From IMG/VR virus record IMGVR_UViG_3300030616_000579: DNA of 64,000 nt; one strand, given 5' to 3'. Under the pieces are notes generated by a model. That model did not search any database and was not told the DNA's origin. It was given only the letters and a program-made list of their open reading frames with translations. Positions 1-54,110 of this stretch are shown here, in pieces. The position numbers and the translations under genes are program-made. The stretch is from an uncultured virus (IMG/VR IMGVR_UViG_3300030616_000579). Lineage: Duplodnaviria > Heunggongvirae > Uroviricota > Caudoviricetes. Each line of letters starts with the position of its first letter. Position 1 is the stretch's first letter.

Positions 1-122
1 AGGTTGTCGCTTGGTACAACAACATCATATTTCTCTTTCTTCTGCCTCTCGAGTTCATTTACTAACTCGCTCAATTTTTCTTGCAATGTTTTTTCTTTTT
101 CTTCCATTTTTCAATCACCTAT

Positions 123-314
123 TTAGCGGTAAATAATATTATCAAGAGAATCAATTATCTCTTGAAGCTCATCAATTATTTCTTGTATTGTTTCATACCT
201 TTCTGAATCAATTAAATTTTCAGGAGCGTTATCATATTTATCTTGCTCTTCAGATTGAATTTGCTCAATCTCTTCTTTTATCTTTTCAAGTTGGTCTCTT
301 TGTGCTTGATTCAT
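123..314 (-). CDS. Small acidic coiled-coil phage-type hypothetical protein
   Basis: Start MNQAQ follows a GGAGG RBS; the EEQDKYDNAPENL..SER pattern resembles small phage proteins. Confidence 0.6.
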   Translation of the reverse strand: MNQAQRDQLEKIKEEIEQIQSEEQDKYDNAPENLIDSERYETIQEIIDELQEIIDSLDNIIYR

Positions 315-316
315 TT

Positions 317-451
317 TTAGTCCTCCATTCCAACATAAACAATTAACCATTTAGATTTACAATGTTTACAAATATAATTTTCATCCCGTTCTAAATCATC
401 ATCTTCAATATATTTCAATTCTTTTTTACAATCAGGACAATATGATTTCAT
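317..451 (-). CDS. 44-aa Zn-ribbon microprotein (not in ORF track)
   Basis: Manual translation MKSYCPDCKKELKYIEDDDLERDENYICKHCKSKWLIVYVGMED; two CxxC motifs; GGAGG upstream. Confidence 0.6.
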   Translation of the reverse strand: MKSYCPDCKKELKYIEDDDLERDENYICKHCKSKWLIVYVGMED

Positions 452-620
452 TTTTTATGCCTCCTTACTATCATACATCTTTTGGACTTCTTCTGCAAAC
501 CAATAAAGTGCTGCCACACTAATCATTTAGCACCACTCCTGAATAAAGTAGATTTCAACTGCCTCTTTCAATTCATTTTTCTTGTCTGCCATTTCAATCA
601 CAATATTACATATGGCATTC

Positions 621-16783: not shown

Positions 16784-16787
16784 ATTA

Positions 16788-19700
16788 TCAAGTCCTATTT
16801 TGCCATATAATTGATGCATCTGTTGCAGTAATGTCGCCTGACCCATCTACGTCATAGATGCCATCATACATTTTTTCTCCAAACCTATGTTGCCAATCCA
16901 CAGTTACATCCGTCGCCACTACGTCAGTAGAATTATCAATATCATACCTACTTCCTGTTGTGGTATAATAATAAGATTCATTAAACCAAGTTGAACCATC
17001 AGTAACATTAATATACCAATAATATATGGTGTTTCCCCAAAGAAATTGAGTTGTTAAAGTTGCATTTGCTAATGGATTAACAGAGAAATAACCAGATGTT
17101 TCTCCTGTCCAAGTTGCTAATGTATCAATTGAATTTGTTGTACCAGTTATATTAATATATTTAATTGTGATATCTAAATTAGTTCCATTAATATATGCAC
17201 TGAGATTTACTGGCGGTCTTGCTTGTCCTATTGATTGATTGGTTGGATATGGTCCAGTAATACTAGTTCCATCTTGTGTTTCAAATACATAAGTTTTATT
17301 TAACCAATGAATTGAACTAGTTTCATTCACACAAATAGCCCACCTATAATCTGTAGTATAATTTTCAACCCACGATGTATTATATGCATAATAAGTTCCA
17401 TTTGATGTGCAAAATGTTGTATTAAATATAGTTCCTGTACAATTATTTTGTTTCCATGTTATATTAAATGATTCTCCATATGAATGATTAATTGTAATTG
17501 CAAAGTAGTCAAGAGGAACTGCAACATCTTGTGATTGGTCTGTTGGTGATGGCGAGGTTATATTTAATTCTGTTACCTTAAATCCAAATATATTATTAGT
17601 TGTTGCTGATTGGTTATCTGTAATTGTTACATTTAATTTATAATCTCCTGCTTTTAATGAATAATTTGAAGGTGTTAAATAATTTGTATATAGAGTATTT
17701 TGTTTTTGATACCAACCAGGAATTGACCTATTATTATACCAATTAATAAATGTTCCATTTGAATATTCAATTGTTGTATTTATCCAACAATCGTCATAAT
17801 TTGGGTCACCCAACCATTCAAATAATATTGTTTGGTTATCTAAAGCATAATATGTTCCATTTACTTGTGGTGAAACAACTGATAAACTAGCAGGAGGAAA
17901 ATTAACATCTCCTAAAACATCATACCATTCTTGACTCCATGTTCCTTCTGAACCATCTTCAAGTTCAGCGTAAAATTTATAAATTATTCTATCATTTTCT
18001 GGATTTCCAACATTAAAGTTTACATCAGGACAACCTTTTCTTGTAACATTTGCATAAACATCGTATATTTCATCAGGTGATAATGTCCTATTCCATAATC
18101 TTACATCATCAATTGAACCACTCCAACCTGCAGTTATACCATATCTTGTTCCTATATATATGTCACCTATTCCAGATTCCATATTACCTGTACCAGCAAA
18201 ACCAGATTGTCTGTGAACTTCTGTTCCATTAACATACATAACTACAGTTTCTGGTTCTGTTGAATTAAATGTTACTGCAACATGATACCAAGTATCTCCA
18301 TCAAATAAGTAATCATTTCCTGTTGATTCTTGTTTCCAACCACCTCTATAAAAACCAAATCTTGGTCTATTTTTATTATTTGATGTTCCAAATCTAAATG
18401 AATCTTCTTTTGATATCCAATAATCATAAGGTGCTAAATTTGCAGGATTAATCAAGCATGAAACTGTCATTTCAGTTGTAAAGTTTAAATGTCCATCTGG
18501 GTCATTAGTTATATTAACATAATCTGTTGTTCCATCAAAGTCTAAACAACTTCCTTCGTGTCCTGATGCATTCCATGTTGCACCATTTCTTGTTCCATTA
18601 TGATAATGTCCTGAATAAATTTCTGAACTATCTATACAAACATCGCCTGCACCTTCATCAAACTTAAGCCATAATACTTCATCATCAATTGTATCATTTC
18701 CAAAAGTATGCCAAACTGTTCCATTATTTGTTGATATTTCAGCAACAGTTGTATTTAAAAAGTCAAAGTAACCCGTTCCAACTGTTTCATTTCCGTCAGC
18801 ATAATAAAGTTTCCACGCATCATCATAATTTGCATTACTTGTAAATATAAAATAATATGATGTTGTTATGCCTATTCCACCAATACTTCCGTTATTAGTC
18901 GAAAATGTAAGATTATAATATTTTGAATTTAACAATGAATATGAATAATCTTGACCAGGTGTAACTGAACCCAAAAATACGCAATAGGGTGATGTACTTG
19001 GGTTTCCTGTCGTATAGGATTCATTTGCATACCAAACATTTAATGGTTTGTCTCCTGATGTTGCATTTGCATAAAAGAATATATGATGTGTTGCATTTAA
19101 CCAATTATTATTCCAAGCATATTCATCTGGTGTTATACCTGTTAAATTAAATTCTGTTTTAAGTATATTCTGTGAATAAATTGGAGAATATTGGTCAGTC
19201 TTTGTTTCATACATCATTTGTTTTCTATCTAAATACCAGAACTTTGGGAATAAAGCACATGAACATGGCAATACTTGAACTCTAGTCCAATTATCTCCAT
19301 AATTTAATACTGTAAATTTAGATGAATTTGGTAATGCACCACAAGACCATTCACCTATTTCACCAAGTTCCCCTGTTCCAGAATCATTAAATTGTTCAAA
19401 CCAATACCCCAGATTTCTTCCATGCCCTCTAATTAAATTTGGTGCTACTGGATTAGATGGTGCCATAAACGATGCGTTCTTTGCTGTTGTATCATAACTT
19501 GCTGTCCTTGCAAATAATATAGTTTCATTTTTTATTCTTGTATTATTAGTTGTTATATTTACTATTATTGGCACTTCTGTTATATTAGCTATATTTATAT
19601 CTAAAGCTGTTTCTAAAGTAAATGTTATTGTTTCTGTTGAACCTTCTGTTTCAAAGAGTAAGTCTGCATTATCAAAACTATATTGAGATAAGTCTTCCTC

Positions 19701-22700
19701 TTCTGTATAACCCCAGAATTTATAGTAATATGTCGTTGATAACGGCAGTCCTGTATCATTATAATAGTTCAACGGCCCACTATAGATAACTGTTCCATTT
19801 CCTCTTGTCCAATCAGAAGATGTGTTTCTTTCAACAACTGTTAGATGTGAACCGTTTCCCTTTGACCATGAAAAATTAATAAAATTAGAACCATTGTTAA
19901 CTACAGATATACCAGTTGGTGCTTTTGGTAATGTCATGAATCGCAGTTCTTCACCATACCCGTGTTCAGCACTGTTATTTGCAAATGCTCTATAGTGATA
20001 GACTGTTCCAGGATATAACTCGGTTAAAGAATCATTAAATATACCACTTAAAATAAATTCTGATGTTGAATTTGTTGAAAAGAATGTAGAGTTTTCTACA
20101 TATGCTTTTAAAGCACGATACATCTGTTCATCTGCAAACCGTTCTATTCTTTCATTAGCTTCTGTTACATTCGCACAAGTCATTATTGTTTCCATCAAAA
20201 CGTTATATTCATTAAAGGTCATATTTTCAATCGGTTTGGTGAAATTCCAGATGTCACGTACACAAGACCTACATACACTATTTCCACTAATAGCATAATT
20301 TGATTTTTCATCAGTGAAATACTGAATACCTAAGTTACCATTATATGGACTTTCAGTAAAGTTAGCAGGAATATCTTGTTCTCCTTCCATATATTTTATT
20401 CCTAAAGGCAATCCAACTTCCAATTGGGTTGTATTACCAAATCCAAGCCACGCCATTGATAATGCACCATCATAACTGTCGTTTCCACCAAGTGCAACCA
20501 TAAATGATTTAGCATTGTACTTACTGATACCTGTATTCAAAGAATATGTTCCACTATATCCAACAGGTTCATAATCGTTGTTTAATTTAGATAGGATACT
20601 AACGCAGTCCTCATAACAGATAAGGTCGTCTCCATATCTAGTTGTACTATTTGTCGTCCAATTAAGAACAACATCATAAATAACCTCTGCATCTGGGTCG
20701 TTCCACCGTTGGTCTTGTTCAGTGTACCAACAGTTTGCAATTGGCGCCCATGTATTGTTCATCCATGTGACATTTACATGGTTAGCATTATCTTTTGAAA
20801 CAAGAGCACCAACACCTGGTTGTGCTGAAACAATCAACATCAACCCATTCAACCACATATGGTCTTTAAGATAATCAACAGTTTCTTCTACTGTTGACCA
20901 GTTACCAAGAGGAATATGTAAATCGTTGTCTTCATTAAGGCTACCTTCATCAGAATTATATGAATAGTTACCCAGTAGATGTGAGTTCCCCTCGTCATCA
21001 GCATTAGCTAATATCAAACCTTTTTCATTCATCCCCATTCGACACATTCCACTGTCATTACCGACACCCCAATAAGAATAGTTTGTTCCATTATAGAAAT
21101 ACACTTTCTGATATTCATTTGTTGAATGTCTATTTTTCCAAATAATACTTCTACCATCTCTACATGCTGTTCCTGTTGCAATTAGACAACCACATTCTCC
21201 TTCTTCTTCAGCTTCATATTCTTGTAAAACAGTATACGTATCCCACTCTAACCATACTGTACAGTTTTCACCACCACCACTTGTAAGATTTCCCCAGATA
21301 ATTGCAGAACTATTTGTGATACTTGTAGCTTCAAGAGTTGAAACAGTTGGTTCAGAATATTGTGGCCCATATTTCAAGAAATCAAATGTTTGATTAGAAC
21401 TATGATATGATGCTTTCAACCAACTAGCGTTTCGTTCACAATTAGACATTCTAATTTCATCAACAGTGCCATTTAAGTAGCAACCACCACTTCCGCTATA
21501 TCCAGTAGTAAATGCACCTGTCTTTTCTAAAGGTAAGGTAGTAAGACTTCCTGTATACAATGATAACGCAGAAAGATTTTGTTGTATAGTAGAATTAAGA
21601 ATATCACCTTTTGATGCACCTGTCATTGTAAACGCATAGTATGTGTCTTTAGCTGTTGTAGTATTTGATACTGTACTCATATATGCATAACAAGTTGAAT
21701 TTAAAATTATAAGACTTCGACCAAACACATCAACATTTAGTAGTTTTAACCCGTGGTTCCAAGCATTATTCCACGTTCCTACAACAATATTATGTGTATC
21801 TTGGTGATTTATTTCGCCAATCATTAATTCATATGTGAAGTTGTCCGAGTGCAAACTTGAATCTGAACCAAAACTGATATAATCAGATGAATTGTCTGTT
21901 AAATCCACACCACTTCCTATTGTAACTGGAGTACCACGAACACAACTTCCATCAACATCCGTCAATGTTCCATCGTTACTAAACAAAGATGAATCAATAA
22001 AGGTTCCACTGGTTTCATTCAAATGGTGTACTAATGTATAATTGATATTCCACACACCATCTGCATTTTCTTGTGAATCACAGAATGTATCATTATATCG
22101 CATCCAAATAACTGTATCTTCATCTGCACTTACTTCTGTAACATTAACCCATACATAGTTCGTACCACTTTCATCCCAGTTACTTCCATTTTCAATCTCA
22201 AAGTTCAACACTGTCGTATTATCAGAATTATTAAATGATATACTATTGCCAGAATCACATTCAGCACCAAGAGTTGCATTAATAGGAATAAGAACTGGAA
22301 ATTCAGCTAGCGGTTCATCAATATAATCATGGTCAATTGCTATACGCAGAACCTTACTTGGATTATAAGAACTTTGAACATCACCAAAATACACAAACTC
22401 ATCTGTTCTGTTTACATTATAAAACGTTGCATTAATCCAAGACTCGTTTCGTGCAATGTTTGATATTCGTACTTCATCTACACCACCATCGGTATAATAA
22501 TCGGTAGTTCCTTTATATTTTCCAAGAGTAAGGTCATTTGAATTATTTAAAAGACTTCCCCAAATCATACGATAGTCAGGACAACCACCACTTCCAACAG
22601 TTCTTAGATATTCATCGTTGATATAAAGAATTGTAGAATAAGCACCTGGTAATGAACTATTATCAAATGTATATGAATGATAATACCACATATCATTAAC

Positions 22701-24686
22701 TGCGATATAATCATTTTCTGTAGCTGTATCTGTACAATTCCATCCGTTGCATCTCCAAGTGATTTTTTGCATTGTTCCGCTCTTATACATATCCCAACCG
22801 TTAGTATATCCTGGCGTTGCACCTTTACTCCATAATCCCATAGTTGTCGATGTATCTGAAAACTTCCACCATCCCTCAACTGTTATCTTTTCCCACGTTG
22901 TATTTAGAACATCATGGTGAGGAAACGTAATTGTTGTGTTAGATGTATATGATAAATCCTGTGAATTACCAATCTTACCAGACCCGTTTTCATCAGATGC
23001 ATTTACTTTAGCACCAAGGAATGCATTAAAAGTGCTTCCATTAACCTGTGTAGAATTATAATCATTCATGTGGCAAACTAACACAAAATTGTCATCCCAT
23101 ACGCCAGTTGTATTTTGTCCATCTTCCATCTCTGAATTATTAAATGTCATCCAGAGAACAGTGTCTTCGTTTGAACTTACCTCTGGAACACGCACCCACA
23201 CAAAACTGTCACTACTGGAATTCCAACAATCTATTTCATAGTTAAGTTCACTTGTATTATCAGAGTTATTGAACCGTATGCTATTTCCTCCATCACACGT
23301 TGAACCTATAGTACTATTAATTTTAACAAGAAGTGGAAAATCAACTAATGGTTCCATAATGAAACTGTGGTTGATATTTATCTGCAAAATACTTGAACCA
23401 TAATCCTGAGTGTCAAATGTATAATCTTCCATTGTCTGATTGAGTGTATAGTTTTCTAAAGCAAAACTTGAGTTCTCATCAGCAAACTGTTCCAATGCAT
23501 CTTCTACTTCAGAATCATTTGTAAACGAACCAAAATTATCCATAAATTCTTCGTATGCATCAAATGTCCAGTTCTCACAAGTAAATGTAAAATTTTGAAT
23601 CTCTCTAGTTTTTGAACAATTATATGTATTGTCTCCTGGGTCTGGTTCTGAACCAGATGCATAATTTACCTTATAATCAGTATAATCTTCCATTCCATTT
23701 CCATCTCTCCAGAATGAAGGAAAATCACCATCTGCATGAATATACGAACAACCCAATGGTAAAAAGATGCCAACCAAAGGTTGTCTCCCACACTCAACCC
23801 AAGCTATATTTCCTGAACCATTGAAACTATCATTTCCACTTACAGCAACCATACCATTTGTGCAAGATTTATGAGTTGCTTTACTAGCACAACTAAATGT
23901 ATCTGCACCCCACTCCAATCCACTTACATTTCTTGCTCCCCACTGGACAACATCTCTCCAAGAAATAAGATTTGGACAATCTTCATCTATTCCTGTTCCA
24001 TTGTTGAGAATATCCCAACACATCATCTCTATTCTAATATCTGTCCAATCACTATCATTATCATTCCATTCATAGAAATGATTTGCTAAAGCTGCAAATG
24101 AATTGTTTATCCAACTAACATGATAACTCCGTTGTCCTGTTTGCCACCCAAAATCAATAACAGCTCCAACACCAGGTTCTTTACTAACAATACCTACAGT
24201 CATACAATTTTCACCTAGGTGAGCAGTTAGATGAGCAACAGCATCTCCAACTGTTGAGTAGTTTGCAAGACATTCATACATAATAGTAGCATAATGAATT
24301 GAATTGTCGGTGAACCCTTGTGGATTGTTTAACGTATAATTACAATCACTGGTCTGGAAATTACCTATTGCAAGACCAACTTCATTAAAACCAAGTGGCC
24401 CCGTTAACCAGAAACTATAATTTGCACCAGGCCAATCATAATGATTTGGTTCTACATCTGTAGCTGTTGAATGTCGGTTCTTCCAAAAAATACTTCTGTT
24501 ATCTTTTACAACTGTACCAGTAGCCACCAACCCACAACATCCTTCACACTCATCCCCAAATGAAGGAAACTCAAACGGTGGATAGTCTTCTTCATCCTCA
24601 TTTCTAGTGAAATCTAATGCCCCTATTGTCGATGCTAATATAAATGAACAAATAACGCACAGACTAACTATGTTTTTCTTCTTCAT
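16788..24686 (-). CDS. Giant secreted glycoprotein (2632 aa): two Ntn-hydrolase (C45/C69-like) domains, two DUF2341+LamG units, FN3, LamG, Ig, C-terminal dockerin
   Basis: CxxLxATG..KNRH..GxNExGL occurs twice. FPLLV..IRF..LNYEI..VWV.V is the DUF2341 pattern. LamG motifs WLKFDEG and GxIDEVRIS. Dockerin at the C-terminus. Confidence 0.8.
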   Translation of the reverse strand: MKKKNIVSLCVICSFILASTIGALDFTRNEDEEDYPPFEFPSFGDECEGCCGLVATGTVVKDNRSIFWKNRHSTATDVEPNHYDWPGANYSFWLTGPLGFNEVGLAIGNFQTSDCNYTLNNPQGFTDNSIHYATIMYECLANYSTVGDAVAHLTAHLGENCMTVGIVSKEPGVGAVIDFGWQTGQRSYHVSWINNSFAALANHFYEWNDNDSDWTDIRIEMMCWDILNNGTGIDEDCPNLISWRDVVQWGARNVSGLEWGADTFSCASKATHKSCTNGMVAVSGNDSFNGSGNIAWVECGRQPLVGIFLPLGCSYIHADGDFPSFWRDGNGMEDYTDYKVNYASGSEPDPGDNTYNCSKTREIQNFTFTCENWTFDAYEEFMDNFGSFTNDSEVEDALEQFADENSSFALENYTLNQTMEDYTFDTQDYGSSILQININHSFIMEPLVDFPLLVKINSTIGSTCDGGNSIRFNNSDNTSELNYEIDCWNSSSDSFVWVRVPEVSSNEDTVLWMTFNNSEMEDGQNTTGVWDDNFVLVCHMNDYNSTQVNGSTFNAFLGAKVNASDENGSGKIGNSQDLSYTSNTTITFPHHDVLNTTWEKITVEGWWKFSDTSTTMGLWSKGATPGYTNGWDMYKSGTMQKITWRCNGWNCTDTATENDYIAVNDMWYYHSYTFDNSSLPGAYSTILYINDEYLRTVGSGGCPDYRMIWGSLLNNSNDLTLGKYKGTTDYYTDGGVDEVRISNIARNESWINATFYNVNRTDEFVYFGDVQSSYNPSKVLRIAIDHDYIDEPLAEFPVLIPINATLGAECDSGNSISFNNSDNTTVLNFEIENGSNWDESGTNYVWVNVTEVSADEDTVIWMRYNDTFCDSQENADGVWNINYTLVHHLNETSGTFIDSSLFSNDGTLTDVDGSCVRGTPVTIGSGVDLTDNSSDYISFGSDSSLHSDNFTYELMIGEINHQDTHNIVVGTWNNAWNHGLKLLNVDVFGRSLIILNSTCYAYMSTVSNTTTAKDTYYAFTMTGASKGDILNSTIQQNLSALSLYTGSLTTLPLEKTGAFTTGYSGSGGCYLNGTVDEIRMSNCERNASWLKASYHSSNQTFDFLKYGPQYSEPTVSTLEATSITNSSAIIWGNLTSGGGENCTVWLEWDTYTVLQEYEAEEEGECGCLIATGTACRDGRSIIWKNRHSTNEYQKVYFYNGTNYSYWGVGNDSGMCRMGMNEKGLILANADDEGNSHLLGNYSYNSDEGSLNEDNDLHIPLGNWSTVEETVDYLKDHMWLNGLMLIVSAQPGVGALVSKDNANHVNVTWMNNTWAPIANCWYTEQDQRWNDPDAEVIYDVVLNWTTNSTTRYGDDLICYEDCVSILSKLNNDYEPVGYSGTYSLNTGISKYNAKSFMVALGGNDSYDGALSMAWLGFGNTTQLEVGLPLGIKYMEGEQDIPANFTESPYNGNLGIQYFTDEKSNYAISGNSVCRSCVRDIWNFTKPIENMTFNEYNVLMETIMTCANVTEANERIERFADEQMYRALKAYVENSTFFSTNSTSEFILSGIFNDSLTELYPGTVYHYRAFANNSAEHGYGEELRFMTLPKAPTGISVVNNGSNFINFSWSKGNGSHLTVVERNTSSDWTRGNGTVIYSGPLNYYNDTGLPLSTTYYYKFWGYTEEEDLSQYSFDNADLLFETEGSTETITFTLETALDINIANITEVPIIVNITTNNTRIKNETILFARTASYDTTAKNASFMAPSNPVAPNLIRGHGRNLGYWFEQFNDSGTGELGEIGEWSCGALPNSSKFTVLNYGDNWTRVQVLPCSCALFPKFWYLDRKQMMYETKTDQYSPIYSQNILKTEFNLTGITPDEYAWNNNWLNATHHIFFYANATSGDKPLNVWYANESYTTGNPSTSPYCVFLGSVTPGQDYSYSLLNSKYYNLTFSTNNGSIGGIGITTSYYFIFTSNANYDDAWKLYYADGNETVGTGYFDFLNTTVAEISTNNGTVWHTFGNDTIDDEVLWLKFDEGAGDVCIDSSEIYSGHYHNGTRNGATWNASGHEGSCLDFDGTTDYVNITNDPDGHLNFTTEMTVSCLINPANLAPYDYWISKEDSFRFGTSNNKNRPRFGFYRGGWKQESTGNDYLFDGDTWYHVAVTFNSTEPETVVMYVNGTEVHRQSGFAGTGNMESGIGDIYIGTRYGITAGWSGSIDDVRLWNRTLSPDEIYDVYANVTRKGCPDVNFNVGNPENDRIIYKFYAELEDGSEGTWSQEWYDVLGDVNFPPASLSVVSPQVNGTYYALDNQTILFEWLGDPNYDDCWINTTIEYSNGTFINWYNNRSIPGWYQKQNTLYTNYLTPSNYSLKAGDYKLNVTITDNQSATTNNIFGFKVTELNITSPSPTDQSQDVAVPLDYFAITINHSYGESFNITWKQNNCTGTIFNTTFCTSNGTYYAYNTSWVENYTTDYRWAICVNETSSIHWLNKTYVFETQDGTSITGPYPTNQSIGQARPPVNLSAYINGTNLDITIKYINITGTTNSIDTLATWTGETSGYFSVNPLANATLTTQFLWGNTIYYWYINVTDGSTWFNESYYYTTTGSRYDIDNSTDVVATDVTVDWQHRFGEKMYDGIYDVDGSGDITATDASIIWQNRT

Positions 24687-26350
24687 ACTATCGTTCCCAA
24701 ATTAGTTGAATTTATAGTGTTCGCACCATTGATATCAATAGCGTTTCCACTATTATACAAACAATTGTTTGCACCGATTATATTCCAATCACTTGAACCA
24801 ATTTCCGTTATTCCATTGATACATAAATGCACGATGTTACCTATCAAAATGTTATGTTCTACATCATTCAAATCAATACCATTCTCACCACAGAGATTGA
24901 TGATATTATCAGATATCGAACAGTTATGTCCTGAGTTATTGATTCCAAAATATGTACAGTGTTTGATACTGTTCGCTGAAACAATGGTGTTATTACTGTT
25001 TATAATAGTTCCATTTAAGACATCAGTAATAGTGTTACCAATAACTGTTACACCTTTACCTGATTGTGTATCTTTATTATATCCTATTTGTATTCCAACA
25101 TCAGCATTTTGAATGTAGTTATTTGTGCATGTACCATTTCCTCTAAACCAGAAAATACCACCTGTTTCAGTTGACTCATTTAATCCTGTATTCAAAATCT
25201 TGTTTTCAGATACCAGACAGATTTCTTCTAATCCATACTGTCCAGCCAAATATATTCCATGCTCATTAACATTCTCGATATAGTTGCCAAAAACAATACT
25301 ACTATCGTTAACAAAAATTCCTGCAGAGACATTTGGTTTTCCCCCTGAGAAATGTCCTGAGACATTCCGTATAATATTATTTGATACTGTACTATTGAAA
25401 AACGCATAGATACCACACTTATCAACGTTTTCTATGATATTATTTGATACTATTGAAACATCACCTGCAAAAATACCTACTGAGTAATGTTTTTCCACAT
25501 CAAGATATGCAGTTGAATTTAAATGATGGATATGATTATTTACAATAGAGATGTTTGCATGTGCAAATCCGTATGAACCGCCAAGATGAATTCCATGTCC
25601 AATCTCTCCTGTGATTGTGTTTCCATCTGCAACCCCTGAGGCTCTATCATCCGTTGTTTCTTCATAAACAATACCACATGCATAGGTGTCACGAATAAAG
25701 TTGTTCTTTGCAATACTATTTGGGCCACTAAACCAAATAGCTCCACCGTATCTCTCTCGTTGTCTATTACTGAAATAACAATCCTCAACAGTAATATTAG
25801 CTGCACCATCATTGGACATAATATGAGAACCAACAGAGTTGTTGAAGTAACAATTCTTAATAGTTACATTTTGTGATATTGGTGTTCCCTCAATTCTAAT
25901 GTTCGATGTGTTCATGTACGTCCACGTGGTTCCATTATTACCCTCAAAGGCAATGTTTTCAATGAGTATATTGCATTTACTTCCAATCCAAATCATATTC
26001 GTACTAGTGTTATCGGCACGTCTTAGCGTCGTTGCCTGTCCGTTTCCAATCAAATTCACATTATTTTTAAAATTCAATGCACTAATGTTGAATGTTCCAC
26101 TCGGTAACCAAACGGTTCCTCCATCTGTCAAATCATTGATTGCTGTCTGAATGTTTGTACAGATTGTTGTATTACCCACTACATCCTCTGATGTGTTCCA
26201 AAGATTTCCTTTGCTGTTAACAATGACTGTATAAATAGTATCAGACGTTGAAGACATAGTTCGATTAACTGTAGACACAGTTGAATATACTGTAACCAAA
26301 ACTATTAGCAAACATAGAACCCAAACAAATATTTTCGTTTTACCCTTCAT
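24683..26350 (-). CDS. Right-handed parallel beta-helix (pectin lyase-like/NosD) protein, putative glycan depolymerase/adhesin
   Basis: IQTAINDL..GGTVWLPSG..LIGNG..TTL cap followed by many IxxNxI repeats; signal/anchor peptide. Confidence 0.8.
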   Translation of the reverse strand: MKGKTKIFVWVLCLLIVLVTVYSTVSTVNRTMSSTSDTIYTVIVNSKGNLWNTSEDVVGNTTICTNIQTAINDLTDGGTVWLPSGTFNISALNFKNNVNLIGNGQATTLRRADNTSTNMIWIGSKCNILIENIAFEGNNGTTWTYMNTSNIRIEGTPISQNVTIKNCYFNNSVGSHIMSNDGAANITVEDCYFSNRQRERYGGAIWFSGPNSIAKNNFIRDTYACGIVYEETTDDRASGVADGNTITGEIGHGIHLGGSYGFAHANISIVNNHIHHLNSTAYLDVEKHYSVGIFAGDVSIVSNNIIENVDKCGIYAFFNSTVSNNIIRNVSGHFSGGKPNVSAGIFVNDSSIVFGNYIENVNEHGIYLAGQYGLEEICLVSENKILNTGLNESTETGGIFWFRGNGTCTNNYIQNADVGIQIGYNKDTQSGKGVTVIGNTITDVLNGTIINSNNTIVSANSIKHCTYFGINNSGHNCSISDNIINLCGENGIDLNDVEHNILIGNIVHLCINGITEIGSSDWNIIGANNCLYNSGNAIDINGANTINSTNLGTIV

Positions 26351-27987
26351 TGGTCTATCACTCCTAGATTACATGATTGATTGCTGTTCGCACCTGCTAT
26401 ATCTATACCAAAGCCTCCATTGTACAGACAATTGTTGAACATATACAGATTATAATCACTAGCTGTATTCTCATTTATACCATCAAGTCCACAGTTCTGT
26501 ATGATGTTTCCAGTGTAGATGCCATTTACTCTGTTTTGAATATGGATGCCATGCAGTTCACAGTTTTTAATAATATTATCAGAAACAGTTGCATTATCAG
26601 ATTGAGAATAAATGCCATAAAACAAACAGTTGTCGATGTAGTTTCCTTTGAAAATGTTACTACCATAGAGATAGCTACCGTTTGATACATTAACAACTCT
26701 ATTACCTATTGTTGTCACTGTCATATTTGCATTGTTAATTCCTGTATAAATCCCAATTTCGGCATCTTCTATATAGTTCCCTGATATCGTTCCATTACCC
26801 ATAAGTCTGATACCACGGCTTCCAGACTTATTTTGGCCTACATGTTTGATTATATTATTTGAAATGATATTCTGATGGCAATCATCAAAGTAACTATATG
26901 CTTGAATTCCATCTTTTCCAATGTTTTCAACATAGTTTCCAATTATGATACTACTTCTAGAAGCTATAATACCACAAGAATTCCGTCCACATTCCCCAGT
27001 GACATTGCGTACTATATTGTACATAATCGTACAATTCTCAGTTCCACTAATACCTCGTTCATCAACATTTTCTATGATGTTGTTTGCACAATAACAGTTT
27101 TCATCAAGATAGATACCAAGAGACCAATGTAGTGCCGTATCCGCATATGCAGATGAATTTAAATCATGAATATGATTATTGATAATTGTAACATTTGCAC
27201 TACCTGTTCCTTCACAATGAACACCATGTGATGTTTCACCTGTTATTTCATTTCCATCAGCAATCCCACCAGCTTGACCATATGTGTTTTCCTCAAAAAC
27301 AATACCACATGCATATGTATCTTTGATAAAATTGTTTCGTGCAATACTGTTAGAACCAGAAAACCAGATTGCAGCTCCATACATTTCATGTTGTCTTCCA
27401 TTGAAGAAACAGTTCTCAATTAGAATATTGTATGCACCGTGGTCTGTCATAATATGAGACCCAACTGAATTATTAAAGTAACAATCTCGAATGGTTACAT
27501 TATATGATTTTGGATTTAACCCTTCTATGCGAATATTTGATGTATCATAATATGTCCACGTTGTTTCATTGTTTCCTTCTACATGTAAATTACTGATAAC
27601 AATATCGTGGTGTTTGTATATATGAATCATATTTGTACTTGTGTTGTCTGCTCTTCGCAGAATTGTAGCCCCACCAACACCTTGTAATTGAACGTTATCA
27701 CAGATTTCAAGATTTGATATATTCATTGTTCCAGCTGGCAACCATACTATCCCCCCACTGGAACTGTTTAAATCCCAGATAGCATTCTGAACGTTTTTAC
27801 AAATCGTTGCATTACCAACAGCTTCTTCTGTTAAATTCCAAAACTTTCCATTGCTATTACGAATAAACAAAAACTTACCATCGTTGTTCTCTGATATCAC
27901 CCAATGAACAGCTAACACCGAATGTAATGAAAGAAAAATAAATGAACTTGCAATGAGTATTATACATAGTACTCCTTTTATTTTCAT
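26347..27987 (-). CDS. Parallel beta-helix protein, paralog of 24683-26350
   Basis: Likely start MKIKGV. Shares RRADNTSTNMI, YFNNSVGSHIM, AIWFSG and DTYACGIV blocks with its neighbour. Confidence 0.8.
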   Translation of the reverse strand: MKIKGVLCIILIASSFIFLSLHSVLAVHWVISENNDGKFLFIRNSNGKFWNLTEEAVGNATICKNVQNAIWDLNSSSGGIVWLPAGTMNISNLEICDNVQLQGVGGATILRRADNTSTNMIHIYKHHDIVISNLHVEGNNETTWTYYDTSNIRIEGLNPKSYNVTIRDCYFNNSVGSHIMTDHGAYNILIENCFFNGRQHEMYGAAIWFSGSNSIARNNFIKDTYACGIVFEENTYGQAGGIADGNEITGETSHGVHCEGTGSANVTIINNHIHDLNSSAYADTALHWSLGIYLDENCYCANNIIENVDERGISGTENCTIMYNIVRNVTGECGRNSCGIIASRSSIIIGNYVENIGKDGIQAYSYFDDCHQNIISNNIIKHVGQNKSGSRGIRLMGNGTISGNYIEDAEIGIYTGINNANMTVTTIGNRVVNVSNGSYLYGSNIFKGNYIDNCLFYGIYSQSDNATVSDNIIKNCELHGIHIQNRVNGIYTGNIIQNCGLDGINENTASDYNLYMFNNCLYNGGFGIDIAGANSNQSCNLGVIDQ

Positions 27988-27988
27988 G

Positions 27989-30900
27989 TTACGTTCTGTT
28001 AGCCCATACAAGAGACACATCAGTGGCAGTAATGTCTCCTGATGCATCTACATCATATATCCCATCATACGATTGTTCACCTGTTCTATGGTTCCAAACA
28101 GTTATTACATCCGTTGCAGTAACATCAGATGTGTTTTTGACATCATATCGAGAACCCGTTGTTGTATAATTGTATGTATAATTCAACCACAAAACACCAT
28201 TTGTTGCATTGATACTCCAGTTATAACTCGTGTCTCCCCAGATGAATTGATTTGCATAACTTGATAATGTTGCAATCGTAACTTCATATCGTCCTGAACT
28301 AACACCAGACCAACTTCCAACCTCCTCCCAGGTTCCTGTAACTGATGATGTTTTATTCAATGCATAGAAGTAGATATCAAGAGATGAACCATTAATTAAT
28401 GCACTAATATTAACTGGTGGTCGTGCTACAGAAGATGTTGTATTATATGGATATTCACAACAGATAGTAAAGTCTCCTTGGGTCATAGCAGATGCAGTAT
28501 CATTTTGTAATGAATAGTTTCCATCTGTGTCGTTCCATCCCCAGATAGCATAGTAGTATGTTGTAAAATTCTCCAATTCAGTATCATTGTAATAGAGGTT
28601 TGTACCATTATATATCTCTGTTCCGTTAAATGGTGTCAGTGGATAATTAGTCCACCCTGATACATTCCTAAGTAATACATATGTATCACAACCATCTCCT
28701 TCTGTCCATGTAAGATTGATAACTGAATTGTTATATGCACTTGCAGAAAGATTACTTGGGGCTAGGATTGAATAATTAAATGTCCACCAAGATGACCAAT
28801 TTCCCCACGTATAGTTTGCTATTGTAAAGGAATATGTTTCATTTGTCCAGTGACCAGATGAATCATTAACCTTAACTTGCCACCAATATGTTACCTCTGA
28901 TGTATTTGCCCATGTTGCTCTCTGTTGATATGTTCCATTTGTCAACGTTGAGTTGAATGCAATATCAGTCCACACACCAGAATAGTTTGATGCCCATGTA
29001 ATGTTGAATTTCTCTCCTTGTGTTTCTGTTACAGTAATATTGAGAGTTGGGTATACTGATACTCCTGTTGCCTCATCTGATGGTTGTGGGTTTGATACTG
29101 TTGGATTCTCTGATTGAACATTTATTTGACCAGAAAACGACAAAGTTTCCCATGTCATATTTGGATTGTTCTGCACTGTAAAGGTAAACGTTTCATTTGT
29201 TGTTGAGTTTCCATCTGATGCATTAACAAAAATTGTATATGTCTGTTCATAGGATAAATTACTACCCATATCAATCCATTTACTACCGTTGTCATCATTG
29301 TTTGATGAATTTGACCCAACGTCTGGATATGATTCTATTGACCAATCAAACGTATTCCCATTCTCATCATTAATAGTGATGTTCCACATATCTGTTGTCT
29401 TAACTACATTGGTTGATTCGTTTGCTGGATTTGGATTTGAAAAATCTGGTGCGGTGTTGTTACCTGTCATAAAGTAATAGGTTGCATTAGTTGAATTTAC
29501 CTCAGCGACTTCTGATGCATTCACCCATACTGTGTACATCGTACCATATGATAAGTTCCCTGCAATGTTTACCTCTTTTGACCCATTAGAGTCTGATGTC
29601 AACGAGTTGTTACCAACGGCAGTATCAATACTCCAATTGAAGAGATTTGCATTCGGTGATTCTATAGTTACATTCCATGTTGTAGTAGAAATAGATACCT
29701 CATATGAGTTGTTAGCAGGATTTGGTGATAAAAACACAACAACAAGCCCTTGATATGTTTCATAATCACTTGTGTTTCCATCACTCCACTGAGCAACAGC
29801 AGGTTCACCCCAATTTGCATACTCCCACACTCGATAATAATATGTTTCTCCAATGGTCAACCCAACGTGTTCATAGTAATCATTTGCACCACTGTAGATA
29901 TTTGTTCCATTACTTCTATCAACTGGAATGTTGTACTCATTCACAACAAGATAACTAAGGTTGGCACCATCACCGTGAGACCAGGTTATGTTAAACCCTA
30001 AATCTGTTTCTGATATAGACATACCACTAGCAGGTTGTGGTTTGGTAATAAAGTATGTTGAATTCCAGGATGCATTCCATCCATTTGAATTGTTTGCAAT
30101 AGTTCTAGCATAATAGAACGTACCACTGTCTAAACCAGTGATATTTAATGAGAACTCTGTGTTTTGCGGTTGAATCCCCGCAGATGTGTTTCCTGTTGGT
30201 GTCGAAAAATCATTAGTATACTTATTGTATTCAAAATACACTGTTGAATCCTCAGAATCATTGTTCTGCATGTATCCCAACATTGTAACATTTGTTTCTT
30301 CGATGCCAACTGTTCCATTAATCGTTACATTTAGTTCGCCACCTGTCATTGTAAACCAGTACACTGCTCGTGAAAAGTTTGCACTATTTATTTCAGTTGC
30401 ATTAACAAACACTGTATATGTTGTACTATAACTCATATTCCCTGCAATACCAATAGAGTAACTTCCATTCCCTACATTATCTGATGAATTACCTCCAATC
30501 AATGGCACTGTTTCTATTGTCCAATTAAAGTTGTCACCTTCTCCATCCTCTATAGTAACATTCCATGTTTCTAAAGACATACTGTTACCAGTAGACTGAT
30601 TAGCTGGATTAGGGTTTGATATTACAGGGCCAACTTGTTTCTCTGTTGAAAACCAATATACAGCATTTGCAGTATTACTTTGATTATCTGTCGCATTCAC
30701 CATTACGTAATATGTTGTATCATATGTCAATCCAGATATGGTTACACTCTTCGACCCATCAGTATCATCAGTTAAACTATTATTTCCAACATTAGGTGAC
30801 GTATCTATAGACCAATTAAATGCATCTTCATCTCCATCATTTATCGTTACATTCCATGTTGTTGTGTCAATAGAAACTCCTGTTGATTCATTTGAAGGAG

Positions 30901-40583: not shown

Positions 40584-40584
40584 G

Positions 40585-40854
40585 TCAATATTCCTCGTAT
40601 TCCTCCTCGTGTGACCCAAGAAAGAACCACACTATTAGACCAACTCCAGAAAGAACAAACATCAATCCAAAGACTGTTCTGAATGATGTTATCAATGGTT
40701 GCACATCTGCATCAACTCCCATATCCTCAGCTTGGTCTTCTACCATAGTGAAAATGTTTCCAACTGGTGTACTAAGAACTATAAATAAAACTAAATTAAT
40801 GAATGAAAAGGTCGCAAGACCTATTGATGCTTTCGTCCAATTTGTTTGAGCCAT
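40585..40854 (-). CDS. Two-helix membrane protein with acidic tail, possible minor capsid protein
   Basis: Helix-loop-helix hydropathy of MCP size. Confidence 0.6.
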   Translation of the reverse strand: MAQTNWTKASIGLATFSFINLVLFIVLSTPVGNIFTMVEDQAEDMGVDADVQPLITSFRTVFGLMFVLSGVGLIVWFFLGSHEEEYEEY

Positions 40855-42710: not shown

Positions 42711-42917
42711 CTAATACGATTGTAGTTCGTATTGTTTTGCATACAGTTTAACACTTCGATTGGGTTTTTGTTTTACCCATCTGTCTGCTTCATCTGTACG
42801 CATATATCTACTGATGTTTGTATCAGTATCTGTTCCAACCCATATGGGTTCTGGGTCAATTGTTTTAATCTTACCTTCAAATGGTTCTTTTCTTTTTCGT
42901 TTAATGTATCCCATCAT
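42711..42917 (-). CDS. Small hypothetical protein
   Basis: Likely start MMGYIKRK overlapping the upstream stop. Confidence 0.5.
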   Translation of the reverse strand: MMGYIKRKRKEPFEGKIKTIDPEPIWVGTDTDTNISRYMRTDEADRWVKQKPNRSVKLYAKQYELQSY

Positions 42918-52921: not shown

Positions 52922-53044
52922 TTAGTCCTCCTTGTGTGTTTCTTCAACAAAATATTCTTCACCACAATCAAGACATTTAAAAAGAATATAGTCAGGATAA
53001 CCCTGACAATATCCCCCACATTCTGGACAGAAATAATCACTCAT
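52922..53044 (-). CDS. 40-aa Zn-ribbon microprotein (not in ORF track)
   Basis: MSDYFCPECGGYCQGYPDYILFKCLDCGEEYFVEETHKED; GGAGG RBS. Confidence 0.6.
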   Translation of the reverse strand: MSDYFCPECGGYCQGYPDYILFKCLDCGEEYFVEETHKED

Positions 53045-53047
53045 CTT

Positions 53048-53284: not shown

Positions 53285-53339
53285 ATATCGTTAACTGAAA
53301 AGATTTCAATTGTTGTTGGTGTTGGTTTGGTTGTCAAGT

Positions 53340-53879: not shown

Positions 53880-54110
53880 TTAGTCACCACCGTCTTCATA
53901 AATGTGTTGAACTATTACGTGGTTGTTCCATATACTGATAGTGTCGAAAGCACTTGCGTTTTCAATATCGAAGTTTTTTCCATTCATCATATCACTTCAA
54001 CATTGATATGGAACACATATTATATAAAGGTTATTGAAAATTTAATAGTTTTTAATACTCAACACTTTCAAAAAAAATACCTTGCCTTACCGTATATACT
54101 AAAATGTGTT

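What the first reader, a model, noticed from the sequence alone, without database searches (positions are those of the whole stretch)
19925..24539. Self-cleaving Ntn hydrolase inserted inside an FN3 domain of the 2632-aa polyprotein
Seen: two paralogous domains begin CCGLVATG (Cys50, nt 24539) and CGCLIATG (Cys1165, nt 21194), each after an acidic linker. The second sits between the two halves of an FN3 domain: EPTVSTLEATSITNSSAIIWG..VWLEW (~21235-21354) and GIFNDSLTELYPGTVYHYRAFANN (~19925-20050). These halves are contiguous in the homologous FN3 of the 1044- and 795-aa proteins. Established: Ntn hydrolases activate by cleaving just before their catalytic Cys. Inference: autocleavage would cut the chain, but the split FN3 would hold both pieces together, keeping the N-terminal 1160 aa attached to the dockerin or making it releasable. 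Both copies have KNRH where related enzymes usually have NRD.
Basis: partly seen in the sequence, partly recalled or inferred. Interest (0 to 1): 0.7.

Follow-up and report, generated by a model that had tools for sequence, protein, structure and literature searches.

The report
Cysteine Ntn hydrolase nested in FN3
A giant secreted archaeal-type surface protein carries two copies of an undescribed enzyme of a self-activating class, and the second copy sits inside a loop of a small clamp-like domain that could hold the chain together after the enzyme cuts itself free.

Summary
ORF 16788-24686(-) encodes 2632 aa. It has two paralogous ~370-aa domains starting at Cys50 and Cys1165 (33% identity, E 9e-46), each after an acidic linker and each with KNRH.

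AlphaFold models match Cys-Ntn hydrolases. The best match is the C69 dipeptidase 5iau (Z 30). Model residue 62 (Cys1165) is the first aligned residue against the mature N-terminal nucleophile of PVA, BSH, IAT, NAAA and acid ceramidase.

By sequence this is a small, undescribed family: 79 representatives among 1.84 billion proteins, all below the C45 and C69 HMM cut-offs. His replaces the canonical Asp at Cys+22.

Copy 2 is nested in the C-C' loop of an FN3 domain. HMMs of the two halves hit adjacent parts of contiguous FN3s. In the deeper model, whole FN3 structures align across both halves (Z 9-10, 85-97 residues).

The nesting recurs in 15 complete units and 11 cut records, in Thermoplasmata and Methanosarcinales MAGs. 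All 8 copies deeper than residue 200 are nested. All 60 un-nested copies start within the first 84 residues.

Autocleavage at Glu1164|Cys1165, with the fragments held by the FN3, is the likeliest mechanism. It is inferred, not shown.

The parts
16788..24686 (-). ORF of 2632 aa (P0001): secreted multidomain surface protein
   Evidence: Pfam Laminin_G_3 (3 stretches) and DUF2341 (2 stretches); 134 N-x-S/T sequons against 47.8 +/- 6.1 in shuffles
24618..24686 (-). Signal-peptide-like N-terminus, aa 1-23 (MKKKNIVSLCVICSFILASTIGA)
   Evidence: read directly from the translation; no predictor was run
24540..24617 (-). Acidic linker/propeptide 1, aa 24-49
23439..24539 (-). Cys-Ntn hydrolase copy 1, aa 50-416. 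It starts at Cys50 and has KNRH at aa 69-72.
   Evidence: family core HMM hit at 50-416; weak NF040521 C45_proenzyme match (E 1.9e-4, 20.9 bits, cut-off 85)
21237..21356 (-). FN3 N-half, aa 1111-1150 (strands A, B, C)
   Evidence: N-half HMM i-E 9.1e-19; pLDDT 87-95 in model 2; part of the whole-FN3 structural alignments
21195..21236 (-). Acidic linker, aa 1151-1164 (YTVLQEYEAEEEGE), ending at the predicted scissile bond Glu1164|Cys1165
   Evidence: pLDDT under 50
21192..21194 (-). Codon of Cys1165, the predicted N-terminal nucleophile
   Evidence: Cys in 46 of 46 rows that cover the column; model residue 62 is the first aligned residue against mature Ntn enzymes
20091..21194 (-). Cys-Ntn hydrolase copy 2, aa 1165-1532. 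KNRH is at aa 1184-1187 (nt 21126-21137).
   Evidence: core HMM hit at 1165-1532; VIA Z 30.1/30.3 to 5iau_A; pLDDT about 90-98
19923..20090 (-). FN3 C-half, aa 1533-1588 (strands C', E, F, G)
   Evidence: C-half HMM i-E 5.6e-22; pLDDT 77-89
19719..19922 (-). Next, uninterrupted FN3, about aa 1589-1656
   Evidence: Pfam fn3 E 0.005, 17.5 bits (below the cut-off of 25)
16791..16970 (-). Dockerin-like C-terminal module (last 60 aa)
   Evidence: Pfam Dockerin_1 16.2 bits against cut-off 22.9, profile positions 3-52 of 57

Best explanation
P0001 is a secreted, heavily glycosylated, archaeal-type cell-surface protein. It carries two divergent copies of an undescribed family of cysteine N-terminal-nucleophile (Ntn) hydrolases. 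The family lies between MEROPS C45 and C69.

**Copy 1.** It follows the signal peptide and a 26-aa acidic propeptide.

**Copy 2.** It is nested in the C-C' loop of an FN3 domain.

**Proposed mechanism.**
- Each copy activates itself by cleaving the bond before its Cys (Gly49|Cys50 and Glu1164|Cys1165). This exposes the free alpha-amino Cys that this enzyme class needs.
- At copy 2 the cut breaks the polypeptide. FN3 strands A-B-C then belong to the N-fragment (aa ~50-1164: Ntn1 and the DUF2341/LamG modules).
- Strands C'-E-F-G belong to the C-fragment (aa 1165-2632: Ntn2, FN3, LamG, Ig-like repeats and the dockerin-like tail).
- Both FN3 sheets are built from both fragments, so the sandwich acts as a non-covalent clamp that keeps the two pieces together.

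**Shown by computation:** the fold, the nucleophile position, the nesting, its conservation and the position rule.

**Inferred:** the cleavage, the retention of the fragments, and the substrate. The substrate is probably a peptide or amide outside the cell.
For: **Fold.**
- Foldseek top hits are C69 dipeptidase chains (5imh, 5img, 5iau; E 1e-9), followed by 3gvz, BSH, PVA and IAT.
- VIA gives 5iau_A Z 30.1, rmsd 3.9, 342 residues aligned, model 62..432 against chain 9..452. The second model gives Z 30.3.

**Nucleophile position.**
- Model residue 62 (Cys1165) is the first aligned residue against residue 1 or 2 of PVA/BSH, 103 of IAT, 143 of acid ceramidase and the first residue of the NAAA beta-chains.
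- Precursor structures align from 3-5 residues earlier: 2x1c_A 57..333 against 98..351, and 6dxw_A 59..319 against 123..356.

**Sequence relationship.**
- 14 of 31 family members hit NF040521 C45_proenzyme (best E 1.8e-10).
- Pfam AAT hits 3 of 31 members and CBAH 2 of 31.
- The nearest Atlas clusters carry AAT on 16-27% of their members.

**Conservation (counts are rows that cover each column).**
- Cys 46 of 46, Lys81 46 of 46, Arg83 46 of 46, His84 43 of 46, Asn117 47 of 47, Asn207 47 of 47.
- These residues are kept in nested and un-nested copies alike.

**Nesting.**
- The half-HMMs hit as described in the observation check.
- With the 52-row alignment, pLDDT of the halves rose to 87-95 (N-half) and 77-89 (C-half).
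- Whole FN3 chains align across both halves:
  - 7cg8_A: Z 10.0, rmsd 3.0, 95 of 105 residues, model 6..485.
  - 8oq9_A: Z 9.3, 96 of 103 residues.
  - 7y8h_B: Z 9.1, 91 of 93 residues.
  - 4lsd_A: Z 9.1, 96 of 98 residues.

**Recurrence.**
- There are 15 complete nested units in 14 proteins, plus 11 cut records showing one half.

**Position rule.**
- 81 copies have an intact N-end.
- The 60 copies without an N-half all start at residue 16-84.
- All 8 copies starting beyond residue 200 are nested.
- Fisher p = 6e-6. This is not corrected for relatedness; I count at least 3 lineages.

**Complex prediction of the two cleavage products.**
- Verdict: weak support. ipSAE 0.56 (runs 0.60, 0.54, 0.56); best of 3 controls 0.00.
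- The mark was reached by 116 of 157 solved complexes and 2 of 215 mismatched pairs.
- At 0.60 or under it was reached by only 18 of those 157, and by both mismatches that passed.
- The runs agree in at least 78% of contacts, and partner pLDDT is at least 66.
- Halves of a known fold can pass through likeness to solved FN3 structures.

**General rule.**
- Ntn hydrolases are made as inactive precursors that self-cleave to expose the nucleophile, and the subunits stay attached (PMC9140057, abstract and passages).
Against: - No experiment or proteomic datum shows cleavage.
- The canonical Asp at Cys+22 is His in this family. Whether His supports autoproteolysis is unknown.
- The primary paper on 5iau and its D31P mutant was not in the library.
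- The complex score is only 'weak support', and no contacts were returned.
- Thirteen nested copies sit near the N-terminus, where no large N-fragment needs holding. Nesting therefore did not necessarily evolve to permit internal placement.
- No curated HMM reaches its cut-off on P0001: NF040521 scores 20.9 against 85, and nothing was found for PF03577 or PF03417.
Confidence: 0.6

Rival explanations
1. The internal copy is never cleaved. It acts as a non-catalytic binding or structural module, or uses its Cys without a free N-terminus, and the FN3 insertion is an ordinary nested domain.
For: - No direct evidence of cleavage exists.
- The canonical Asp is replaced by His.
- No curated Ntn HMM passes its cut-off on P0001.
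- Ntn-fold proteins of unknown activity appear among the structural hits, for example 9bwa TANGO2 at Z 15.3.
Against: - Every putative catalytic position is kept in the nested copies exactly as in the N-terminal copies.
- Un-nested copies are never found away from the N-terminus: 0 of 60. This is hard to explain if a free N-terminus were not needed.
Confidence: 0.15
2. Autocleavage occurs but serves release. The split FN3 comes apart, spontaneously, under force or on a signal. This sheds the N-terminal ~1100 aa (Ntn1 and the DUF2341/LamG modules) from the dockerin-anchored C-fragment.
For: - The complex prediction gave only weak support (0.56, best control 0.00).
- SEA and GAIN modules, which are cleaved but stay associated, can separate under force (recalled, not from a call).
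- The linkers at both junctions are predicted to be disordered.
Against: - In an FN3, sheet ABE and sheet CC'FG each mix strands from both fragments (textbook topology; strand order). Separation would therefore need unfolding.
- The deeper model packs both halves confidently into a complete FN3.
Confidence: 0.15
3. The bond before Cys1165 is cut in trans by another protease, for example the C25 gingipain-like enzyme encoded at 38553-40619, and not by the domain itself.
For: A Peptidase_C25 protein lies in the same gene cluster (E 2.8e-28).
Against: - P1 is Glu in 15 of 18 nested copies, and never Arg or Lys. Gingipains cut after Arg or Lys (recalled, not from a call).
- Relatives occur in genomes and loci with other neighbours.
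- Self-processing is the rule for this fold (PMC9140057).
Confidence: 0.05

Closest known systems
MEROPS C69 cysteine dipeptidases (PDB 5iau, Lactobacillus farciminis; secernins)
   Same: - Best structural match: Z 30.1-30.3 with 342-346 residues aligned, covering the whole domain including the C-terminal helices.
- Cys1165 is the first aligned residue, opposite residue 9. That residue is the one altered in the entry titled 'C9A mutant'.
- His1187 lies at Cys+22, as does D31 in the entry titled 'D31P mutant' (arithmetic on the entry titles; an inference).
   Different: - Sequence identity is 12-14%.
- Pfam PF03577 does not hit P0001.
- PF03577 also finds nothing in genome G001, which holds a relative.
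- His replaces Asp.
- This family is extracellular, multidomain and glycosylated.
C45 autoproteolytic acyltransferases/hydrolases (isopenicillin-N acyltransferase, PDB 2x1c/2x1d; NCBIfam NF040521; Pfam AAT PF03417)
   Same: - Closest by sequence profile: 14 of 31 members hit NF040521, best E 1.8e-10.
- Atlas neighbours carry AAT.
- Structural match Z 18, with Cys1165 opposite Cys103. The linker aligns with the precursor's propeptide.
   Different: - All matches are far below the curated cut-off (20.9 bits against 85 for copy 1).
- There is no ~100-aa alpha-subunit that is part of the fold. The segment before the Cys is a short acidic linker or an FN3 half.
Choloylglycine hydrolase / penicillin V acylase (C59) and NAAA / acid ceramidase (C89)
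   Same: - Same alpha-beta-beta-alpha core, Z 17-19.
- The nucleophile is at the first aligned residue.
- In C89 enzymes the two chains stay attached after self-cleavage (PMC9140057, passages).
   Different: - Identity is 9-16%.
- CBAH hits only 2 of 31 members weakly.
- His stands in place of the conserved Asp.
SEA and GAIN autoproteolytic modules of mucins and adhesion GPCRs (recalled, not from a call)
   Same: Works alike if the mechanism is right: a self-made chain break inside a folded beta-structure leaves two fragments held together non-covalently.
   Different: - Unrelated folds.
- In SEA and GAIN the cleaving fold is itself the clamp.
- Here the cutter (Ntn domain) and the clamp (FN3) are separate domains, one nested in the other, and the cutter would remain an enzyme afterwards.

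Membership tests
Ntn-hydrolase superfamily | alpha-beta-beta-alpha sandwich fold | tested here: met
   VIA Z 30.1/30.3 to 5iau_A and Z 15-22 to about 25 other Ntn entries. Foldseek gives 73 matches at E <= 0.001, and every one of the listed top rows is an Ntn hydrolase.
Ntn-hydrolase superfamily | Nucleophile (Cys/Ser/Thr) is the first residue of the mature catalytic chain | tested here: met
   Model residue 62 (Cys1165) is the first aligned residue against residue 1 or 2 of PVA/BSH, 103 of IAT and 143 of acid ceramidase. Cys is present in 46 of 46 rows. This tests position only. Maturation was not observed.
Ntn-hydrolase superfamily | Autoproteolytic activation of a precursor | not testable with these tools
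   Needs protein chemistry. Indirect evidence only: the position rule.
MEROPS C69 / Pfam Peptidase_C69 (PF03577) | Match to the family HMM above its cut-off | tested here: not met
   No PF03577 hit on P0001 at E <= 1, nor on its domain segments at E <= 10. No match in G001, which holds a relative. The table for the 31 members shows only the first 25 of 39 families.
MEROPS C69 / Pfam Peptidase_C69 (PF03577) | Asp 22 residues after the nucleophile (D31 in 5iau numbering, from the entry titles) | tested here: not met
   His in 43 of 46 rows, Trp in 2, Asp in 1.
MEROPS C45 / NCBIfam NF040521 / Pfam AAT | Match to the family HMM above its cut-off | tested here: not met
   Copy 1 scores 20.9 bits against a cut-off of 85. 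Copy 2 gives no hit. 14 of 31 members hit at E <= 0.1, best 1.8e-10.
Fibronectin type III domain | Seven-strand beta-sandwich formed by the two flanking segments together | tested here: met
   In model m946d0cc7aace, whole FN3 chains align over model 6..485 with 85-97 residues at Z 9.1-10.0: 7cg8_A, 7cg5_A, 2jll_A, 8oq9_A, 7y8h_B, 4lsd_A. This is a prediction, not a solved structure.
Fibronectin type III domain | Pfam fn3-type HMM above its cut-off | tested here: inconclusive
   Only the C-half gives a weak Pur_ac_phosph_N match, profile positions 64-93 of 93, 14.4 bits against a cut-off of 30. The half-HMMs hit contiguous FN3s, including P0085, which carries PF00041 and PF16656.
Dockerin type I (PF00404) | HMM above its cut-off; duplicated Ca-binding loop | tested here: inconclusive
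   16.2 bits against 22.9 for P0001. The 1901-aa and 1044-aa proteins score 21.5 and 22.4 bits. The two D-x-D-x-(S/D)-G-like loops were read directly.

The most novel reading that the evidence does not exclude
The FN3[Ntn] cassette is a dedicated 'cut-but-clamped' joint.

- It is the only form in which this self-cleaving enzyme family is tolerated in the middle of a chain.
- It turns one giant gene product into a two-chain surface assembly.
- After cleavage, the acidic linker stays tethered by the FN3 next to the basic K-N-R-H active site. There it could act as a built-in lid or inhibitor.
- The joint could also be opened by force or a signal to shed the N-terminal 1100 aa.

This would be a prokaryotic counterpart of SEA/GAIN modules, built from two unrelated domains.
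Probability: 0.35. Interest if true: 0.75.

Novelty: new variant of a known kind. Interest (0 to 1): 0.62.

Why it matters
Ntn hydrolases need a free N-terminal nucleophile. That normally confines them to the start of a chain or to dedicated two-subunit enzymes.

A conserved cassette that nests such an enzyme in an FN3 loop would show how evolution can place a self-cleaving domain anywhere in a multidomain surface protein without losing the pieces. It would also give protein engineers a natural design for a self-cutting, self-holding joint.

The work also defines an undescribed extracellular Cys-Ntn family with a His-for-Asp change at the active site. It occurs in uncultured Thermoplasmata-type and other archaea, next to other secreted hydrolases such as a C25 peptidase. 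This bears on how these archaea process extracellular polymers.

The prediction can be tested directly with one recombinant fragment and one point mutant.

Tried and rejected
**Sequence searches that gave nothing useful.**
- Against PDB sequences, the single domain gave only an E 0.11 chance hit. The A1 profile gave only an E 2.8 TPR hit.
- Pfam on whole P0001 and on the domain segments found no Ntn family.

**FN3 and structure tests that were weak at first.**
- A two-sequence FN3 HMM from the window's own contiguous FN3s found the complementary halves in homologues. On P0001 itself it was weak: -0.1 and 7.7 bits. I replaced it with the reciprocal half-HMM test.
- The first AlphaFold run, with 31 rows, left the FN3 halves at pLDDT 41-64. 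I repeated it with 52 rows.

**Genomes and collections.**
- No whole genome is held for the window.
- No earlier findings exist for this place.
- A PF03577 search in G001 found nothing. It gave no locus from the control genomes, so I could not fetch a C69 sequence for a residue-level alignment.
- No relatives were found in viral contigs: 124 pattern matches, none confirmed.
- The window's PolB against the phage collection gave only 23-27% identity partial hits.

**Literature.**
- Four full-text searches found no described precedent for an Ntn hydrolase nested in an FN3 or in an archaeal dockerin protein. The library lacks most subscription journals.
- The primary papers on 5iau were not found. 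PMC7214794 only cites them (passages).

**Readings rejected.**
- One-off insertion: rejected because of the recurrence and the tree. Nested status needs 5 changes, at least 3 of them on well-supported branches. The tree used 44 of 52 rows; 8 rows with fewer than 250 core residues were dropped.
- Recent tandem duplication of the two copies: rejected because they fall in different clades.
Full report
**1. What is in the sequence**

ORF 16788-24686 on the minus strand encodes 2632 aa.
- CCGLVATG at aa 50-57 (nt 24539).
- CGCLIATG at aa 1165-1172 (nt 21194).
- KNRH at aa 69-72 and aa 1184-1187.
- EPTVST...IIWG at aa 1112-1132, and VWLEW at aa 1144-1148.
- GIFNDS...FANN at aa 1548-1571.

The two domains that begin at these cysteines are paralogues: 33% identity over 389 columns, E 9e-46. 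Each follows a strongly acidic stretch, LDFTRNEDEEDYPPFEFPSFGDECEG and YTVLQEYEAEEEGE.

The N-terminus reads as a signal peptide (direct reading; no predictor was run). The protein has 134 N-x-S/T sequons, against 47.8 +/- 6.1 in shuffles. This fits an extracellular archaeal glycoprotein.

Pfam finds Laminin_G_3 (3 stretches) and DUF2341 (2 stretches) elsewhere in the protein. The last 60 aa give a sub-threshold Dockerin_1 match, 16.2 bits against 22.9.

**2. What the repeated domain is**

*Sequence searches on P0001 alone are nearly blind.*
- No Pfam family hits the domain.
- Nothing turns up among PDB sequences.
- The only signal is a weak NF040521 C45_proenzyme match for copy 1: E 1.9e-4, 20.9 bits, cut-off 85.

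*A full scan of 1.84 billion representative proteins finds a small family.*
- 79 relatives at E <= 0.001, of which 52 are at <= 1e-10.
- Across 31 aligned members, 14 hit NF040521 (best E 1.8e-10).
- 3 hit Pfam AAT and 2 hit CBAH.
- Atlas neighbours carry AAT on 16-27% of their members.

*Structure settles the fold.*
- An AlphaFold model of aa 1104-1592 has pLDDT of about 90 over the core.
- Its top Foldseek matches are all Ntn hydrolases: C69 dipeptidase 5imh/5img/5iau (E 1e-9), then 3gvz, bile salt hydrolases, penicillin V acylase and isopenicillin-N acyltransferase.
- VIA-align gives 5iau_A Z 30.1, rmsd 3.9, 342 residues aligned, model 62..432 against chain 9..452. Other Ntn hydrolases score Z 17-23.

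*The nucleophile position matches.*
- In nearly every row the alignment begins at model residue 62, which is Cys1165. It lies opposite the mature N-terminal nucleophile: residue 1 or 2 of PVA/BSH, 103 of IAT, 143 of acid ceramidase, and Ser1 of the penicillin G acylase beta-chains.
- Uncleaved precursors align from 3-5 residues earlier: 2x1c_A 57..333 against 98..351, 6dxw_A 59..319, 5u84_B 59..370.

*Conservation.*
- Homologues fix the conserved Cys as Cys50 and Cys1165 in the motif C-x-G-x-[IV]-A-T-G...R-S-I-x-x-K-N-R-H.
- In the 52-row alignment: Cys 46 of 46 rows that cover it, Lys81 46 of 46, Arg83 46 of 46, His84 43 of 46, Asn117 47 of 47, Asn207 47 of 47.

- In the most distant relatives, which start with the classical C-T, Asp stands at Cys+22 in 19 of 20, and 17 of the 20 have exactly KNRD.
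- P0033, inside the family, also has KNRD.
- By the titles of 5img ('C9A') and 5imh ('D31P'), the C69 enzyme has its Asp at Cys+22 as well. That mapping is my arithmetic, not a residue-level alignment.

This is therefore a distinct Cys-Ntn family. It is nearest to C69 by structure and nearest to C45 by profile. It passes neither family's HMM cut-off, and His replaces the canonical Asp.

**3. The nesting in an FN3**

*Forward HMM test.*
- An HMM of the two contiguous FN3s of the window's 1044-aa and 795-aa proteins hits nested homologues as two complementary pieces about 370-400 aa apart. In P0002, HMM positions 5-44 hit aa 47-86 and positions 46-102 hit aa 447-509. P0008, P0009 and P0016 behave alike.
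- On P0001 itself this HMM was weak.

*Reciprocal HMM test.*
- HMMs of the N-half and C-half, each built from 18 nested sequences, score P0001 at 1111-1150 (9e-19) and 1533-1588 (5.6e-22).
- They hit adjacent stretches of contiguous FN3s:

| Protein | N-half hit | C-half hit |
|---|---|---|
| 1044-aa window protein | 266-300 (6e-5) | 313-362 (2.9e-9) |
| 795-aa window protein | 174-195 (1.4e-3) | 212-268 (2.6e-5) |

- In P0085 the two HMMs hit a tandem array of FN3 repeats in which N-half and C-half hits alternate. P0085 carries PF00041 and PF16656.

*Model test.*
- With the deeper 52-row alignment, the model's pLDDT in the halves rose from 41-64 to 87-95 for the N-half and 77-89 for the C-half. 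The two linkers, residues 47-59 and 434-439, stayed below 50.
- A search of 48,161 PDB representatives then returned whole FN3 domains aligned across both halves:

| Chain | Z | rmsd | Aligned / target length | Model range |
|---|---|---|---|---|
| 7cg8_A | 10.0 | 3.0 | 95 / 105 | 6..485 |
| 7cg5_A | 9.8 | 2.3 | 91 / 100 | 9..489 |
| 2jll_A | 9.5 | 1.9 | 86 / 382 | 6..484 |
| 8oq9_A (titin Fn3) | 9.3 | 3.0 | 96 / 103 | 7..487 |
| 7y8h_B | 9.1 | 2.2 | 91 / 93 | 6..485 |
| 4lsd_A | 9.1 | 2.9 | 96 / 98 | 8..487 |

- Each half has only 40-50 residues, so these alignments must use both. In the model the halves form one complete FN3.
- The strand order in the model is A, B, C, then the insert, then C', E, F, G. 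The insert therefore lies in the C-C' loop.

**4. Recurrence and the position rule**

*Recurrence.*
- Complete nested units, with N-half, core and C-half, occur 15 times in 14 proteins: P0001 copy 2, P0002, P0008, P0009, P0083, P0084, P0010, P0011, P0016, P0012, P0013, P0019 (two units), P0045 and L001.
- Eleven cut records show one half next to the core: P0044, P0064, P0036, P0050, P0061 and L008 on the N side; P0006, P0057, P0048, P0041 and P0018 on the C side.

*Taxa.*
- Named genome hits are uncultured Thermoplasmata or Thermoplasmatales MAGs (5 loci), a Methanobacteriota MAG, a Methanosarcinales MAG and one Ignavibacteriaceae MAG.
- The nested ones are L001 (Thermoplasmata) and L008 (Methanosarcinales).
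- One un-nested relative is labelled Thorarchaeota.

*Position rule.*
- 81 copies have an intact N-end.
- The 60 without an N-half all begin at residue 16-84 of the record.
- 21 have an N-half.
- All 8 copies beginning beyond residue 200 are nested. They start at residues 203, 569, 570, 578, 1059, 1165, 1631 and 2656.
- My script's 40-aa rule flagged P0045 and L008 as lacking an N-half. Their N-halves lie 47 aa upstream and were seen.
- Five protein records and six stop-to-stop locus ORFs among the un-nested copies do not start with Met, so their positions are approximate.
- Fisher's test gives p = 6e-6, but the internal copies fall into only about three lineages.

*Tree of the core.*
- The tree used 44 of 52 rows. 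Eight rows with fewer than 250 core residues were dropped.
- The nested state needs 5 changes, at least 3 of them forced by well-supported branches.
- The window's copy 1 and copy 2 lie in different clades.

*Residue before the Cys.*
- In the 18 nested copies that include the Cys: Glu 15, Gly 2, Asp 1.
- In the 28 un-nested copies: Gly 8, Glu 7, Asn 7, Asp 2, Ser 2, Ala 1, Cys 1.

**5. How it most likely works**

Established knowledge: Ntn hydrolases are made as inactive precursors that cleave themselves to expose the nucleophile at a new N-terminus. In the PVA-type subfamily the two chains stay attached (PMC9140057, abstract and passages).

An internal copy with all catalytic positions intact can only be active if the Glu1164|Cys1165 bond is broken.

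In an FN3, sheet A-B-E and sheet C-C'-F-G each take strands from both sides of the C-C' loop (textbook topology). Neither fragment could keep a folded half on its own, and the two should stay locked together.

The rule that un-nested copies are always N-terminal, while every internal copy is nested, is what this model predicts.

I mimicked the two cleavage products in a complex prediction, using aa 1104-1164 and aa 1165-1592:
- Verdict: weak support. ipSAE 0.56 (runs 0.60, 0.54, 0.56); best of 3 controls 0.00.
- The mark was reached by 116 of 157 solved complexes and 2 of 215 mismatched pairs.
- At 0.60 or under it was reached by only 18 of those 157, and by both mismatches that passed.
- The runs agree in at least 78% of contacts, and partner pLDDT is at least 66.
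- No contacts were given. A split FN3 may pass through likeness to solved FN3s.

Cleavage, retention and substrate are all inferred. My overall confidence in the cleave-and-clamp mechanism is 0.6.

**6. Points against, and rivals**

*Points against.*
- Thirteen nested copies are near the N-terminus, where only about 50 aa would be held. The cassette may therefore have another primary role, such as tethering the acidic linker by the active site, and merely permit internal placement.
- The His-for-Asp change is of unknown consequence.

*Rivals.*
- No cleavage, with the domain acting as a binding module: 0.15.
- Cleavage followed by release of the N-terminal 1100 aa: 0.15.
- Cleavage in trans by a neighbouring protease: 0.05.

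**7. Comparison and novelty**

It works like a C69, C45 or C59-type Cys-Ntn hydrolase, but it passes neither the C69 nor the C45 membership test by HMM, and it lacks the Asp.

If cleaved, the joint would work like SEA or GAIN modules (recalled, not from a call), but it would be built from two separate domains.

Four full-text searches found no description of an Ntn hydrolase nested in an FN3 or of this family. The library misses most subscription journals.

I rate it a new variant of a known kind, with interest 0.62.

**8. Context**

- All ORFs of at least 120 aa but four short ones, each overlapping a longer minus-strand ORF, lie on the minus strand.
- Neighbours are secreted proteins:
  - two NosD/beta-helix proteins;
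  - a C25 gingipain-like peptidase (E 2.8e-28);
  - FN3- and Ig-rich proteins, two of which also have dockerin-like tails.
- Further on lie a family-B DNA polymerase, a clamp-loader-like ATPase, an integrase-like protein and a MarR-like protein.
- No whole genome is held for the window.
- No relatives of the cassette occur in viral contigs.

Noticed in passing
window 16791-16970, 11144-11323, 27992-28171 (all minus strand): Three large secreted proteins (2632, 1901 and 1044 aa) end in the same ~50-aa dockerin-like module (...GIYDVD.SGDITATD.S.IWANRT). Dockerin_1 scores 16.2, 21.5 and 22.4 bits against a cut-off of 22.9. No cohesin partner was looked for.
   Followed up: partly
window 38553-40619 (-), 24683-26350 (-), 26347-28047 (-): A Peptidase_C25 (gingipain-like) protein (E 2.8e-28) and two paralogous NosD/right-handed beta-helix proteins flank the giant genes. 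Together they look like a cluster for extracellular polymer degradation or surface display.
   Followed up: no
window 53000-64000 and 1-2700: A family-B DNA polymerase (59524-61728), a clamp-loader-like AAA ATPase (56476-57567), a weak integrase-like hit (62476-63087), a MarR-like regulator (54482-54862) and a phrog_22963/STAND-like NTPase (1190-2101). Nearly all ORFs run on the minus strand. No genome is held for the window. It may be a large archaeal mobile element, but this was not tested.
   Followed up: partly
window 42914-47947 (-): A 1677-aa, very basic, Lys/Pro/Thr-rich protein with no Pfam or PHROG match.
   Followed up: no
window 16788-24686 (-): N-x-S/T sequons are nearly threefold enriched: 134 observed against 47.8 +/- 6.1 in shuffles. 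The neighbouring large proteins look similarly sequon-rich on reading.
   Followed up: partly
protein P0019 (1797 aa): One relative carries two complete FN3[Ntn] cassettes in one chain, with Cys at residues 134 and 1059. If both cut, it would become a three-chain assembly.
   Followed up: partly
window 16788-16846: The 2632-aa ORF overlaps the listed start of the next ORF (11141-16846) by 59 nt. A signal-peptide-like start (MKNKKEIKAVIIIILLL...) lies a few codons downstream, so the true start is probably later.
   Followed up: no
window 23439-24539 vs 20091-21194: The two Ntn copies of P0001 fall in different clades of the family tree. Copy 1 groups with un-nested N-terminal forms, and copy 2 groups with P0008. 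The protein therefore combines two old lineages and is not the product of a recent internal duplication.
   Followed up: yes
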